From positions 31,992,001 to 32,056,000 of the forward strand of contig NC_083288.1 of NCBI RefSeq assembly GCF_963506605.1: a DNA stretch of 64,000 bases, in the 5' to 3' direction. The stretch comes from Zootoca vivipara (taxonomy: Eukaryota). Shown piece after piece: positions 44,701-52,300 of this stretch. Made by a program: the position numbers. Within the stretch, counting starts at the first letter, position 1, and each line of letters begins with the position of its first letter.

Positions 44701-46329
44701 AGCCATGGTCACTTCTGTTTGCGGAGGAGAGAGCACATACTAACATGACACGTGATATTGGTGGAGAACATAAAGTAATTGGCCGCTATAGACTATTATT
44801 AGAATGTATAGCACATTATATTAGAAATTATCAACAGTGCCTTCCATGCTGGATTGGGAGAAAGGATTTGACAAGGTTGGAGATTTACAGATTAAACTTG
44901 TTATGGGAGATATTTCCAAGAAATATGCAAAGTATATTGTAAACTATTTATTGCGACAGAGCCAAAAAAGAAGTTTCTAAACATTTGTTGAGAGATTATA
45001 AGGGAATAGTGGGAACCACCATGATCTTCTGCATGGGAAGGGTTCCTCATCAGATGGGACGTGAATGAATTTCTGAAAGCCAACTTGAAATGTGATGCAC
45101 ACATCTTAGTTGAAGTTGCAAGGATTTCCTTAATGTTTCCTTAATCAAGCCCAAATGCATTCATTCACTAACCTAACGTTTTCTCATATATGCTTCACTT
45201 GGTTTTCCTTATTAGTTGCTCCCTGTTATTCAGTTCAGGCCTCAGTACAATGATGTAGCATTTAGGGAAAAAGATGCAAGCCAGTAACCCAGCATTGGAT
45301 GATAAGATGCAGAAGATCTCCACAGCCACCATGTATTTTCCTTTGGTGCTCAGGTACGTTGGGACAAAAGTCAGCCAAACACTGCAAAACACCAACATGC
45401 TGAAAGTGATAAATTTGGCCTCATTGAAACTGTCTGGCAACTTCCTGGCTAGGAAAGCCAAAATGAAGCTGACAATGGCCAAGGAACCCATGTAGCCTAT
45501 GACATAGTAGAACATGATAGCTGAACCCTCATTACATTCCAGTAGCATTTCACCAGTCACTGAGTGCTTGTCCATATCTGGGAATGGAGGGAAAGTACAT
45601 AACCAAAGAGAACAAATGCCAGCTTGAAGAAAGGAGCCGGAGAGGACAATTGAATTTGCCATTCTCTTCCCCACCCATTTTCTCATTCTGGATCCTGGCT
45701 GGGTTGCCATGAATGCCAGAACCACGGTGATGGTTTTTGCCAAGGTGCTGGAAAGGGCCACAGAGAACATGATGCCAAAGGCTGTTTGTCGGAGAAGGCA
45801 GATGACCTTCCCAGGCTGTCCAATGAAGAGTAAGGAACAGAGGAAGCAAAGAAGGAGAGAGACGAGAAGGATGTAGGTGAGGGTCCTATTGTTGGCTTTG
45901 ACTATGGGAGTGTCCTTGTGCTTCACAAAAATTCCAAGTATTGAAGTTGTGATAAAGGCAAAGGAAATGGCTAAGATAGCTAAGGTGATCCCTAATGTTT
46001 CTTTGTAAGAGAGGTAGCTTACAGCTTTGGGAATGCATTGAGTTTGGTCCATATTGGGAAACTGGTCTTCTGGACATTTGACGCAGGCATCCATATCTGA
46101 AAATAGAAAAGAGCTACTTTAAATACTTCCAGAAGTTGATCATCACCTATTTAAAGGGGCGATCAGTGAGAATGAATTTCTAGGGGAAAGGGGTCCCTTA
46201 ATATCAAAATCCTTGATGTTAATTTCATCTCAAGTAAATAATACCGTATGAAACTTCTCAACCATCTACAGGTGAAACTCGGAAAATTAGAATATCATCA
46301 AAAAGTGCATTTATTCAAGTAATGCAAGG

Positions 46330-46373
<44 letters not shown>

Positions 46374-49300: not shown

Positions 49301-52300
49301 GATCCAGTCTTCCCACTTTTGCTCTAACAAAATGCATGGTAACCCATCCTGTTCCCATGAACCGCCCCCCTGCTACTGTTCAAGTAGCAGCACTATAGTC
49401 CTTTGAGAGGAAAAAATATTATAGTGGGTCAAGTGAGGGAATCTGTACCTGATGTAAGTCTACTCAAAAAAATGATGATGTGTGAAAACACCCATCCATG
49501 AATCTATCCTTCTCAATAGCATTTCCAGTGAAATATGTCAATAAGAGTTGGAGAAAGAAGAGATGAACTTAGAGTCTTTCATTTCCCCCCTGCCTCCTGC
49601 TTAGTTGCTGCCTCGTGTTCATCTCAGGCCTCAACACAATTATGTAGCATTTAGGGGAAAAGATGCAACCCAGTAAGCCAGCACTAGAGGACAAGATGGA
49701 GAAGATCTCCACAGCTACCATGTATTTTCCTTTAGTGCTCAGGTAGGTTGGAACAAAAGACAACCAAACACTGCAAAACACCAACATGCTGAAAGTGATA
49801 AATTTGGCCTCATTGAAAGTGTCAGGTAACTTTCTGGCAAAGAAAGCCATAATGAAGCTCACAATGGATAGGATGCCCATATACCCGAAGGCACAATAAA
49901 GCATGGTAGCTGAGCCCTCATTACATTCCAATATCATTTCCCCACTCAATGAGTGTATATCTATATCTGGGAATGGAGGGGAAGTACTTAACCATAAAGT
50001 ACAAATACCAGCTTGAATAAAGGAGCAGGCAAGGACAATAAAATTAGATAATCCTTTCCCCACCCATTTCCTCATCTTGCTTCCAGGTTTGGTTGCTATG
50101 AAAGCCAGGACCACAGTGATGGTCTTTGTCAGTACAGAGGAAAGGGCCAAAGAGAAGATGATGCCAAAAGCTGTTTGTCGGAGAAGGCAGGTCACCTTTC
50201 CAGGCTGTCCAATGAAGAGAAAGGAGCAAAGGAAGCAAAGGAGTAGGGATACAAGGAGGATGTAGGTGAGGGTCCTGTTGTTGGCTTTGACAATGGGAGT
50301 GTCCTTATATTTCACAAAAGTCCCAAGTACTAATGTTGTGATCAGAGAGAAAGAAATGGCCAGGATAACTAGGAGGATCCCTAAGTCTTCTTTGTAAGAG
50401 AGGTAGCTTATAACCCTGGGGATGCATCGAGTTTGGTCGTTGTTGGGATGCTGGTCTGCTTGACAACTGACACAGTTATCCATGTCTGAAATAAAAGGAA
50501 GATGTTAAGTAGTTTTGGGTGTAGCCAGATAGAATGCATCTTTCTGCTTTTTTGCAGTTCTGCATTGTGACTTAGCTGATGTGCTTACTATTTTTAAGAC
50601 ATTTTTAAGGCACAAGCCTTTCTTTCTCAGTTTTGCTCTAATCTACAATGCTGGCAATAATAATACTAATTTCTCTTGCAGGGTGGCTATAAGAGTTCTG
50701 TGGTGTTTTCTGTGGCAGTACTTCAAGCACTCACAAAGTACTTTTCACATGCCAAGAATCACTACAGCTATAAATTAGGATGTAAGGAGACAGTGATTAT
50801 AGTTCCATTTTGTGTTCTTTGTAATCAGCTCTGTTTCTGTTCTACTACAGTTCAACTTCTGTTAGTATCTTTGTTATTTGTGTTGTATAATTAGTTAATT
50901 AAGTACATAATTTCAATGCATTTCAATAGAAGATAAATGCCGAAAACAATGTAATTATTTAAATAATGTTTGCAGACCAAAAGCCATCCAAATTAGTGAT
51001 CATTAGTACTTCTTGTGGAAACTCACATCTCAAAAGCTACTAGGGGAATAGACAGCAATGTATTTTTTTAAAAAAATACAATAATAGCATTGAAAAGGAA
51101 GCTGAATCCTTCTAGGAATTCTACGTGCCAAAATACCAATGGACCAGAAGAGACTATTTATGTATGTGAGCACTGCTGTTCGGATGTTACTAGCCCAGAG
51201 ATGGGAGAAGACATAGCCCCTACCAGAGAAGAATGGCAAATTAAACTGATGGATTATGCTGAAATGGCAAAAATGACCGGGAGAATTAGAATCCAGGAAG
51301 ACCAAAATTTTAATAAGGAATGGGGAAAATATATAATTTAACTTAAAAGTCATTGTAAACAAAATTATTAGTAGGATTGGAATGACACTTGTAGTTTTAT
51401 GTTGGACTATGGTTGTAATGGAGATTTAATAGAAGTGGATTAATAGGAAGAAAAAAAGTTAGCATAAGGACCCACAAAGGGAAGGAAGGAGGTCCATGGG
51501 AATTTATGGAATTCTCTTTTTGTTTTGGTTGTTTGACAATGGTTTGTAAATCTCAAAATCTGAAAACTAAATAAATTTATTTTAAAAAAAGGAAAAAGGA
51601 GATAAAAGGAAGCTGAAACATTGTTGTTAGCCTCCACACAGAGACAGTGGTTGCAGCTACAGCCAACCATTATCACAGTTTCTGGACTAGTATCAAAAAG
51701 GTGAAGAGAACAAAACTTTCTGAACATTACTGAATACCATGTAGTCTGCTCATCTTAACCTACCTATGCAATATGATTCGTTGGTGGGTATCTCACTGGG
51801 GATCTGGCTCTAGGCATACAATAGGTTGGGAGCCAGGAGAGATCTTTCTCCGTGGCAATTGAGACCAGATATGTTTTTTGTTTGTTTTTGGACAGACATT
51901 TGACTTATAAAATTGCTGGTGCTGTTTTATGATTCCCTTTTCTTTTCTTTTCTTTATTTAAATTTATTCTTCCACAGTTATATATCCCACCATTCACTCA
52001 AGTAGTTAACCCAGGCAGCCTAAGGCAGCACATACCGTGTTTCTCTGAAAATGAGACATCCCCTGAAAATAAGCCACTGTGTTTTGTTTTGTTTTTTGAG
52101 GAAAAATAAATATAAGACGGTGTCTTGTTTTTGGAGAAACACAGTGTAGTTGGTCCTAATTCATCTTCACCATTTTATGTGGTTGATTAGAAAAATCTGT
52201 ATTGAGAATTATATTTTTGTATATTCAATGAATCACTCTCTCCCCAAAATAAATACATGAATAAATAAACTAGTAGGTCTTGTTAATGAAATTTGCTTAT

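What the first reader, a model, noticed from the sequence alone, without database searches (positions are those of the whole stretch)
45195..50485. Orphan exon 5-6 (CRD plus 7TM) cassette directly behind intact gene E: possible alternative transmembrane module
Seen: unit D lacks exons 1-3 and over half of exon 4. Its remnant begins only 240 nt after the stop of gene E on the same strand. D keeps the exon-4 donor (49230), open exons 5 and 6 and their splice sites. I see no AATAAA or ATTAAA on the minus strand between the E stop and the D remnant; the first is at 49115-49120, inside D intron 4. Known: exon phases are shared across these paralogs. Inference: E transcripts probably read into D. 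They could splice E4->D5->D6 or E5->D6 in frame, putting one ligand-binding domain on two different 7TM modules. Alternatively, use of the D4 donor within the E 3'UTR would create an NMD target. The simpler reading is that D is dead, since it carries FYC->FYY and EIFS->EIFC changes.
Basis: partly seen in the sequence, partly recalled or inferred. Interest (0 to 1): 0.65.

Follow-up and report, generated by a model that had tools for sequence, protein, structure and literature searches.

The report
Truncated lizard vomeronasal receptor gene copy
This is a young, beheaded copy of a lizard pheromone-receptor (V2R) gene sitting 240 bases behind an intact neighbour, an ordinary by-product of tandem gene duplication that public annotation already lists, and nothing in the sequence shows it serves as a spare membrane module for that neighbour.

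Summary
The window is a minus-strand tandem array of V2R genes from a lacertid lizard. Database models from Zootoca vivipara match units C, B and D at 100%.

- **Gene E** is intact, with 6 exons and 895 codons.
- **Unit D** begins exactly 240 nt after E's stop. It keeps the last 99 nt of exon 4, then exon 5 (CRD) and exon 6 (7TM), all open and with C-like splice sites.

The inference is not supported beyond compatibility:

- The lack of a poly(A) hexamer in 240 nt is what chance gives (P=0.385), and intact gene C shares it.
- Shared exon phases are a family trait.
- The commonest read-through junction (E5 to D5) is out of frame.
- D's exons are conserved, but the coding-useless exon-4 stub is conserved just as well, so the conservation predates the truncation.
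- FYY and EIFC fall at positions that vary across the family, so they are not knock-outs.
- NCBI already lists D as a stand-alone 378-aa model, and 74 of 120 short relatives are likewise headless.

Verdict: a recent truncated paralogue. E-D chimeras remain untested.

The parts
49569..50485 (-). Gene E exon 6 (7TM, terminal exon, stop TAA at 49571-49569). It is the last exon of an intact six-exon V2R gene: E1 57474-57215, E2 56074-55783, E3 54361-53501, E4 53135-52908, E5 52449-52323.
   Evidence: Pfam 7tm_3 E=4.1e-86. All six exons are open, GT-AG, and sum to 895 codons. They are colinear with the full-length paralogue P0145. Exon 3 is 95% identical to the Podarcis raffonei orthologue P0123.
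49329..49568 (-). E-D spacer of 240 nt. Its first ~110 nt is E's own 3' flank and the rest is of unknown origin. It holds no canonical or common variant poly(A) hexamer.
   Evidence: Weak match of 49550-49508 to F's 3' flank (79% over 43 nt, E=0.003) and nothing else in the window. Hexamer counts and shuffles.
49335..49358 (-). Two ATGs (49358-49356 and 49337-49335) in frame with the D remnant. The second is the start codon of the public 378-aa model (MHF...).
   Evidence: Translation of 49230-49568 and the P0218 sequence.
49230..49328 (-). D exon-4 remnant, the last 99 of 228 nt (33 codons), ending in the donor CAG|gtaaga.
   Evidence: Breakpoint common to four paralogue comparisons, junction alignment, donor identical to C's. 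33 of 33 residues equal those of P0044 (read).
49115..49120 (-). First canonical AATAAA after E's stop (+449), inside D intron 4, 110 nt past the D4 donor.
48318..48444 (-). D exon 5 (cysteine-rich domain, 127 nt, phase 0 to 1), open, with AG acceptor and GT donor.
   Evidence: Pfam NCD3G E=3.9e-15, splice contexts. It differs from C by 2 nt.
45195..46096 (-). D exon 6 (7TM, 299 full codons plus stop TGA), open. It carries five D-specific amino-acid changes: M176K, L193I, C197Y, S262C and G272A.
   Evidence: Pfam 7tm_3 E=2.5e-83, codon analysis, 100% identity to P0218.
44947..44952 (-). AATAAA 243 nt after D's stop, the likeliest 3' end for any transcript that contains D exon 6.

Best explanation
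Unit D is a recently 5'-truncated member of the B/C/D subfamily of V2R (class C GPCR) genes in a tandem array of a lacertid lizard. One non-homologous rearrangement joined the middle of exon 4 to a point 240 nt behind the stop of the neighbouring intact gene E. The rearrangement was either a deletion of D's exons 1-3 and the old E-D spacer, or a partial duplication of a full-length sister gene. D has no signal peptide and no Venus-flytrap ligand-binding domain, so it cannot make a V2R of its own. Its exons 5 and 6 are still open and its splice sites still intact because the event is young: about 1% lineage-specific change. Frequent gene conversion in the array may also help keep it open. It is what receptor censuses call a 'truncated' gene. 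Some E transcription may well run into it, as happens between any close same-strand neighbours. The expected products are E mRNA with a longer 3' UTR, or out-of-frame and NMD-prone splice forms, not a second functional receptor.

Shown: the anatomy, the sharp breakpoint, the substitution pattern, and the existing stand-alone annotation. Inferred: the recency of the event, the absence of function, and the nature of any read-through products.
For: 1. The breakpoint is sharp and common to all four paralogue comparisons, with unrelated sequence upstream. No other copy of exons 1-3 lies between E and D.
2. On the D branch, exons changed at 11 of 1117 sites and well-aligned non-coding DNA at 90 of 1166 (Fisher P=1.2e-16). 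The exon-4 stub has 1 D-unique change in 99 sites, exon 5 has 2 in 119 and exon 6 has 8 in 899. The stub would not be coding in any E4 to D5 or E5 to D6 product, so the constraint dates from when D, or its parent, was whole.
3. P0044 is a Zootoca model with its own exon 1 and a full exon 4. It has the same residues as D in the exon-4 stub (33 of 33) and in exon 5 (41 of 41, read). It maps to no unit of the window in its exon 1. A full-length sister therefore exists elsewhere.
4. D-specific changes in exon 6 are 5 non-synonymous to 3 synonymous, against 10:18 for B plus C. This leans towards relaxation but is not significant (Fisher P=0.24; binomial P=0.11 against the B+C ratio and P=0.26 against neutrality).
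5. Staying open is unsurprising: 4.05% of substitutions create stops, so P(open | 8 substitutions) = 0.72.
6. Headless models are commonplace. Of the 120 best relatives of 164-524 aa, 74 have no VFT match: 42 are 7TM only, 17 are CRD+7TM and 15 are exon 4+CRD+7TM. In all, 2974 proteins of that length range scored E<=1e-100.
7. 'Truncated' (no loss-of-function mutation, no proper CDS, not at a contig edge) is a standard V2R class (PMC10869828, methods passages).
8. NCBI models D as a separate 378-aa gene, not as part of E.
Against: 1. Relative to neighbouring non-coding DNA, D's exons are no less conserved than those of the intact genes. The exon to non-coding rate ratio is 0.13 for D, 0.23 for C and 0.37 for B. 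For exon 6 against adjacent non-coding DNA the odds ratio is 0.35 for D, 0.18 for C and 0.32 for B. Continued selection on D's exons cannot be excluded from this window alone.
2. Every splice site is intact, and the D4 donor is a strong consensus site identical to C's.
3. None of the five D-specific residues is a clear knock-out.
4. E has no PAS-like hexamer for 339 nt, up to the D4 donor. The site that aligns with F's AATAAA is not a hexamer in E. Read-through into D is therefore plausible.
5. An ATG preceded by ACC lies 9 nt before the junction and opens a 378-codon frame.
6. No transcript, read-level or cross-species genomic data could be consulted.
Confidence: 0.77

Rival explanations
1. 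E transcription reads through into D, and E4 to D5 to D6 or E5 to D6 splicing puts E's ligand-binding domain on a second CRD/7TM module, giving two receptors from one promoter.
For: E and D lie on the same strand with a 240-nt spacer. The phases match for E4 to D5 and E5 to D6. There is no PAS-like hexamer for 339 nt after E's stop. D's acceptors and its open frames are intact. D's exons are as conserved as those of B and C. Read-through chimeras between close same-strand neighbours are common in human cells (PMC4450057, abstract and passages).
Against: Matching phases are a family trait. The missing hexamer is at chance level, and intact gene C shares it. E exon 6 has a strong pyrimidine-rich acceptor (tcttccttttatttcag) that would have to be skipped. 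Seven canonical hexamers lie between E's stop and D exon 6. The favoured junction, second-to-last exon to second exon, is out of frame here. The exon-4 stub is as conserved as exons 5 and 6, so conservation cannot be credited to use as a module. With D exon 6 as query against longer proteins, the best matches were 97%, 97% and 96% identical. They correspond to C, a paralogue outside the window, and B, not to an E-D hybrid. A hybrid could still be hidden inside a 90% cluster.
Confidence: 0.06
2. Read-through with a regulatory effect only. E pre-mRNA extends into D, the D4 donor is spliced to D5 and D6 within E's 3' UTR, and the exon junctions downstream of E's stop make part of E's mRNA an NMD target. 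This lowers E output without changing the protein.
For: The D4 donor lies 339 nt after E's stop and no hexamer comes before it. The donor is a consensus site identical to the functional one in C. A junction more than about 50 nt after a stop triggers NMD (established rule, recalled).
Against: AATAAA lies 110 nt past the donor and could end the transcript first. There are no expression data. Such an effect would be an accident of the rearrangement, and nothing indicates selection for it.
Confidence: 0.1
3. D is a stand-alone 'headless' receptor gene. It would be transcribed from a cryptic promoter in E's 3' region and translated from ATG 49337 into a 378-aa CRD+7TM protein that partners or modulates full-length V2Rs, which as class C GPCRs work as dimers (recalled).
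For: The public model P0218 has exactly this structure. The ATG follows ACC, and a second in-frame ATG lies 21 nt upstream. Full-length 7tm_3 and NCD3G matches are present. Similar models are annotated in many squamates.
Against: The other short models I read start at unrelated, ad hoc ATGs, in exon 4, intron or exon 5. The models for the intact neighbours B and C also skip the canonical signal-peptide exon. These predictions therefore look homology-driven and are not evidence of expression. There is no signal peptide. An in-frame ATG within 20 open codons is not unlikely by chance. No promoter evidence exists.
Confidence: 0.04
4. The E-D junction is an assembly error, and D is really the 3' half of a full-length gene.
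For: The array holds units 93-98% identical in places, which is hard to assemble. P0044 shows a full-length gene with D's exon-4 and exon-5 residues.
Against: Collapse between paralogues joins homologous points. This junction joins non-homologous sequence, a 3' flank to mid-exon 4. There is no N in the window. P0044 differs from D in exon 6 (96.6% against 98.7% to B) and in its C-terminus, so it is another locus. NCBI's model P0218 was built on the same junction, on a 54.85-Mb contig.
Confidence: 0.03

Closest known systems
'Truncated' V2R genes of vertebrate chemoreceptor censuses (PMC10869828, methods passages read)
   Same: A V2R-derived sequence without any loss-of-function mutation but without a proper full CDS, and not at a contig edge. 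It lies inside a tandem V2R cluster.
   Different: Nothing essential. Here the breakpoint can be placed to the base (49328/49329), and it lies only 240 nt behind an intact same-strand gene.
NCBI model P0218, 'vomeronasal type-2 receptor 26-like' of Zootoca vivipara, 378 aa
   Same: 100% identical to D exon 6 over 299 residues.
   Different: It is modelled as an independent gene starting at an ATG in the spacer, not as an isoform of E. I could not see whether transcript evidence supports it.
Read-through chimeras of adjacent genes (cis-SAGe, conjoined genes; PMC4450057, abstract and passages)
   Same: Same-strand neighbours far closer than 30 kb, so the geometry for read-through splicing is met.
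   Different: No junction reads are known. The favoured 'second-to-last to second exon' junction would be out of frame here. The downstream partner is a gene fragment, not a gene.
Expressed V2R pseudogenes in the snake vomeronasal organ (PMC3590772, passages)
   Same: That study found 39 putative pseudogene contigs in a corn-snake VNO transcriptome and detected one pseudogene by in situ hybridisation. Transcription of a defective V2R copy would therefore not be unusual or imply function.
   Different: Those carry premature stops. D carries none and is truncated instead.
Clusters with alternative exon modules (protocadherin and UGT1A type; recalled, not tested)
   Different: Those clusters have many variable first exons, each with its own promoter, and shared constant exons. 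Here there is a single extra 3' module made by an accidental truncation.

Membership tests
V2R / class C GPCR (full receptor) | Seven-transmembrane domain of family 3 (Pfam 7tm_3) | tested here: met
   D exon 6 matches PF00003 at E=2.5e-83 over profile positions 1-251 of 251.
V2R / class C GPCR (full receptor) | Cysteine-rich domain (Pfam NCD3G) | tested here: met
   D exon 5 matches PF07562 at E=3.9e-15.
V2R / class C GPCR (full receptor) | Venus-flytrap ligand-binding domain (Pfam ANF_receptor; exons 2-3 and part of exon 4) | tested here: not met
   D's homology to its paralogues starts at 49328, in mid-exon 4. The D model P0218 carries only PF07562 and PF00003. The 33-residue stub gives no Pfam match.
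V2R / class C GPCR (full receptor) | Exon 1 with signal peptide | tested here: not met
   There is no exon-1-like ORF between E's stop and D. P0218 begins MHFVRAKV.
'Truncated' V2R class (PMC10869828 criteria) | No loss-of-function mutation in the part present | tested here: met
   Exon-4 stub, exon 5 and exon 6 are open, and the splice sites are AG/GT.
'Truncated' V2R class (PMC10869828 criteria) | No proper CDS of at least 2100 bp, and not at a contig or scaffold border | tested here: met
   The longest D frame is 378 codons. The junction lies inside the window with no N, and P0218's contig is 54.85 Mb.
Read-through chimera (cis-SAGe / conjoined gene) | Same-strand neighbours less than 30 kb apart | tested here: met
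   Both are on the minus strand and the spacer is 240 nt.
Read-through chimera (cis-SAGe / conjoined gene) | Transcripts with exon-exon junctions between the two genes | not testable with these tools
   No lizard transcript or read collection is on hand.
Read-through chimera (cis-SAGe / conjoined gene) | Open frame across the favoured junction (second-to-last exon of E to second exon of D) | tested here: not met
   The E5 donor is phase 1 and the D5 acceptor is phase 0. D5 read in that frame stops after 7 codons.

The most novel reading that the evidence does not exclude
The rearrangement has made a two-headed 3' end for gene E. In vomeronasal neurons that choose E, part of the transcripts skip E's own exon 5-6 or exon 6 and use D's. 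E's ligand-binding domain is then displayed on a 7TM module about 18% different in sequence, borrowed from the B/C subfamily. That would couple one ligand specificity to two transmembrane and coupling contexts, a way of diversifying class C receptors not described for V2Rs. A weaker variant is that the 378-aa headless D protein is made and dimerises with full-length V2Rs.
Probability: 0.06. Interest if true: 0.65.

Novelty: already known. Interest (0 to 1): 0.17.

Why it matters
As it stands it matters little. Truncated copies are the normal debris of birth-and-death evolution in chemoreceptor arrays, and this one is already in the public annotation.

Two practical points follow:

- Headless V2R gene models such as this 378-aa one inflate receptor counts if they are taken as genes.
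- An open reading frame and intact splice sites in a young array member say nothing about function, because the constraint visible in its exons was inherited from its intact past.

If the bold reading were true, it would be a first case of one V2R ligand-binding domain served by alternative transmembrane modules. That can be tested directly with a single RT-PCR.

Tried and rejected
1. **Poly(A) argument.** I counted 12 PAS-like hexamer types after all six stops and shuffled each flank. E's zero is not unusual, so I dropped it as evidence.
2. **FYY/EIFC as knock-outs.** Residue counts over 299 aligned stretches from 213 of the 217 proteins fetched by then show that both positions vary. I rejected them as proof of death.
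3. **dN/dS on the D branch.** With only 8 changes the test cannot separate neutrality from constraint.
4. **Origin of the spacer.** A sensitive blastn of 49329-49620 against the window found only a 43-nt match to F's flank. Rfam found nothing in 43000-51000. The origin of 49329-49460 stays unknown.
5. **Cluster contents.** I could not see the members of those clusters, nor the 6 members of P0218's cluster, which I did not ask for. An E-D hybrid or an orthologous truncated D may sit in one of them.
6. **Literature.** These searches returned no paper on read-through or chimeric V2R transcripts:
   - 'vomeronasal type 2 receptor' / 'alternative splicing' / 'chimeric transcript';
   - 'Vmn2r' / 'readthrough' (I read the passages of one of the two listed papers, and there the word occurs only in a methods filter);
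   - 'V2R' / 'vomeronasal' / 'splice variant' / 'transmembrane domain' / 'pseudogene'.

   This is absence in those searches only.
7. **Pfam on the exon-4 stub and on E exon 4.** No family matched.
8. **Not attempted.**
   - I built and searched no joined (spliced) model of E, of D or of an E-D hybrid. Exons were searched and translated singly, and frames were checked from exon lengths.
   - No structure or complex prediction was run, since no claim here depends on one.
   - The closed collections (metagenome contigs, viral contigs) were not used and would not bear on a lizard locus.
   - No lizard genome, read set or transcriptome was available.
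Full report
**What the window is**

All V2R-like exons lie on the minus strand and form a tandem array. In transcription order the units are:

| Unit | What the window holds |
|---|---|
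| F | exon 5 at 63306-63432 and exon 6 at 60251-61152; the rest lies beyond the window |
| E | full gene, 57474 to 49569 |
| D | 49328 to 45195 |
| C | 42682 to 35652 |
| B | 29055 to 20952 |
| A | 16748 to 2440 |

Searching D's exon 6 alone against public proteins returned squamate 'vomeronasal type-2 receptor 26-like' models. The closest come from Zootoca vivipara, Lacerta agilis and Podarcis. P0040 maps to unit C and P0041 to unit B at 100% in exons 5 and 6. P0218 matches D at 100%. The window therefore comes from a lacertid lizard, most likely Zootoca vivipara. Nothing in it looks human. The window has no N.

**Checking the observation**

- D's similarity to A, B, C and E ends at the same base, 49328. 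The aligned junction shows unrelated sequence immediately upstream.
- E's stop codon is at 49571-49569, so the spacer is exactly 240 nt.
- Exon 4 is 228 nt in E and D keeps the last 99 nt.
- The D4 donor (last exon base 49230) is identical to C's over the 21 nt shown. D exon 5 is 48318-48444 (127 nt) and D exon 6 is 45195-46096. Both have AG acceptors, exon 5 has a GT donor, and neither has an internal stop.
- Pfam confirms NCD3G for exon 5 and a full-length 7tm_3 for exon 6.
- No AATAAA or ATTAAA lies between E's stop and the remnant. The first is at 49120-49115.
- FYC to FYY and EIFS to EIFC are D-specific.
- E is intact. Six exons, all GT-AG, no internal stops, lengths summing to 895 codons. 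They are colinear with the 890-aa paralogue P0145. E exon 3 is 95% identical to a Podarcis raffonei orthologue (P0123), which shares E's extended C-terminus.

I checked frames from exon lengths and translated each exon on its own. I neither built nor searched a joined model.

**Where D comes from**

D belongs to the B/C subfamily, not to E's lineage. Exon 6 is 97.9% identical to C, 97.2% to B, and about 83% to E. The spacer behind D (43000-45004) is homologous to the spacer behind C.

The unit is a mosaic.
- Upstream of exon 5, D is the outlier. D-unique changes occupy 14.8% of well-aligned intron-4 sites, against 3.3% for C and 4.3% for B.
- Downstream of exon 5, D is the least changed: 2.1% in intron 5, against 7.3% and 5.7%.

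P0044 is a further Zootoca model. By my reading, it has exactly D's residues in the exon-4 stub (33 of 33) and in exon 5 (41 of 41, including the Gln that B and C lack). It also has its own exon 1, a complete exon 4, an exon 6 closest to B (98.7%) and a different C-terminus. Its exon 1 maps nowhere in the window. So a full-length sister of D's 5' part exists elsewhere. D is either a partial duplicate of it or a truncated twin.

**Does conservation argue for function?**

At first sight it does. On the D branch the exons changed at 11 of 1117 sites and the well-aligned non-coding DNA at 90 of 1166 (P=1.2e-16). D's exon to non-coding ratio (0.13) is no higher than that of the intact genes C (0.23) and B (0.37).

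But the exon-4 stub is just as conserved: 1 D-unique change in 99 sites, beside an intron at 14.8%. The stub would not be coding sequence in an E4-D5-D6 or an E5-D6 message. The constraint seen in D's exons therefore comes from the time when D, or its parent, was a whole gene. It cannot be credited to a present role.

Since the split from B and C, exon 6 has taken only 8 substitutions, 5 non-synonymous and 3 synonymous, against 10:18 in B plus C. This leans towards relaxation but is compatible both with neutrality (P=0.26) and with the B+C ratio (P=0.11). With 4.05% of substitutions creating stops, an exon 6 that has taken 8 hits stays open with probability 0.72. Nine of B's 17 private changes cluster in codons 75-86, which is a sign of gene conversion in the array. 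Conversion could also keep a dead copy open.

The two changes it cites are not knock-outs. Across 299 aligned stretches from 213 relatives:
- Position 197 is Cys in 150, and also Ser (28), Ala (20), Leu (15) and others.
- Position 262 is Ser in 193, Ala in 47 and Cys in 6.

D is non-functional as a receptor because it has no signal peptide and no ligand-binding domain. Its 7TM half looks sound.

**The read-through inference**

Three supports were offered.

*Poly(A) signals.* E has none of 12 PAS-like hexamer types in the 240-nt spacer, nor in the 339 nt up to the D4 donor. Shuffles of the same sequence give means of 0.9 and 1.82, with P=0.385 and P=0.148. Intact gene C also has none in its first 240 nt. 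The intact C and the decayed A lack a canonical hexamer for 1189 and 982 nt. In E's favour, the site that aligns with F's AATAAA (+97) is not a hexamer in E.

*Matching phases.* These are shared by every unit, so in-frame joining is automatic.

*Proximity.* This is real. [quoted passage not shown] Here that junction is E5 to D5. It joins phase 1 to phase 0 and meets a stop after 7 codons.

The in-frame routes need more. E's own exon-6 acceptor has a long pyrimidine run and would have to be skipped. Polymerase would have to pass one canonical hexamer before D exon 5 and seven before D exon 6. The likeliest read-through product keeps E's exon 6 and its stop, so it encodes normal E with a long 3' UTR. 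That UTR may be spliced from the D4 donor, which would make the message NMD-prone. Neither can be tested here.

**What the databases already say**

NCBI lists D as a gene of its own. P0218 has 378 aa and starts MHF at ATG 49337-49335 in the spacer. A second in-frame ATG lies at 49358-49356, and the D frame is open for 20 codons into the spacer.

This is not evidence of expression.
- The models for intact B and C skip the canonical signal-peptide exon.
- The other short models I read begin at unrelated, ad hoc ATGs.

Headless models are routine. Of the 120 best relatives of 164-524 aa, 74 have no VFT match. In all, 2974 proteins in that length range scored E<=1e-100.

With D exon 6 as query against longer proteins, no hit exceeded 97% identity, so no E-D hybrid surfaced.

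**Literature**

- A vertebrate-wide census defines 'truncated' V2Rs as sequences with no loss-of-function mutation and no proper CDS, away from contig edges (PMC10869828, methods passages). D fits. The per-species counts are in supplements I could not open.
- A corn-snake study found 39 putative V2R pseudogene contigs in the vomeronasal transcriptome and detected one pseudogene by in situ hybridisation (PMC3590772, passages). Transcription of a defective copy would therefore be unremarkable.
- Three searches for V2R read-through or chimeric transcripts returned nothing relevant. For one search I read the passages of one of the two listed papers.

**Verdict**

The most likely explanation is a young 5'-truncated V2R paralogue created by one non-homologous rearrangement. 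It is open only because it is young, or because gene conversion keeps it so. It is already annotated.

The alternative-module idea is compatible with the geometry, but nothing beyond geometry supports it. I put it at about 6%.

The decisive data are vomeronasal long-read cDNA, 3' RACE of E, reads across the junction, and the orthologous region in other lacertids. None of these were available.

Noticed in passing
window 44175-44246 (minus strand): The first 24 residues of the NCBI model for gene C (P0040) map at 100% to the D-C spacer, about 950 nt after D's stop. They do not map to C's canonical signal-peptide exon at 42416-42682. A 92% copy lies in the C-B spacer at 30804-30878. This is either an alternative first exon or a prediction artefact. 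If real, it shows transcription just behind D.
   Followed up: partly
window 49052-49096 (minus strand, D intron 4): Behind an AG lies a stretch encoding ENFLEKEGLEGGEEC. It resembles the cassette ENFLEKEGQEEEEEC that a Podarcis muralis model (P0047) places between exon 4 of a partial unit and exon 2 of the next unit. The motif occurs only once in the window, and of the proteins fetched by then only P0047 carries it. In D no GT follows it.
   Followed up: partly
window 8303-11324 (minus strand): Three long ORFs of 265, 424 and 324 aa lie end to end between exons 2 and 3 of unit A. The middle one contains a CCHC-type zinc-knuckle-like motif. This looks like a retroelement inserted in A's intron. 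I ran no family search on it.
   Followed up: no
window 2440-16748 (unit A): Unit A looks like a decayed gene. Its exon-3 homologue is split over two overlapping frames (5939-6493 and 6267-6863), and its exon 5 changes frame midway (4076-4393).
   Followed up: no
window 21599-21634 (B exon 6, codons 75-86): Nine of B's 17 private substitutions in exon 6 fall within 12 codons, and A shares B's base at five of them. This is the footprint of a short gene-conversion tract between paralogues.
   Followed up: no
window 18011-19059 (+), 32800-33588 (+), 5286-5678 (-): ORFs resembling reverse-transcriptase C-terminal parts of LINE elements lie in the spacers and introns of the array. My labelling of them as CR1 and BovB/RTE types is recalled, not tested. 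The one at 32800-33588 accounts for part of the extra length of the C-B spacer relative to the D-C spacer.
   Followed up: no
protein P0231 (Podarcis raffonei isoform X6, 396 aa), the relative of unit F: This public model carries an exon-5-like stretch read in the wrong frame directly before a correctly read exon 5. Annotated transcripts in a related lizard therefore seem to run across an orphan exon-5 copy. This parallels the out-of-frame E5 to D5 junction discussed above.
   Followed up: no
window 38651-38700 and 24953-25000 (minus strand): In C and B a (TTA)n microsatellite abuts the exon-5 acceptor and replaces a normal pyrimidine tract. D and F have unrelated sequence there.
   Followed up: no
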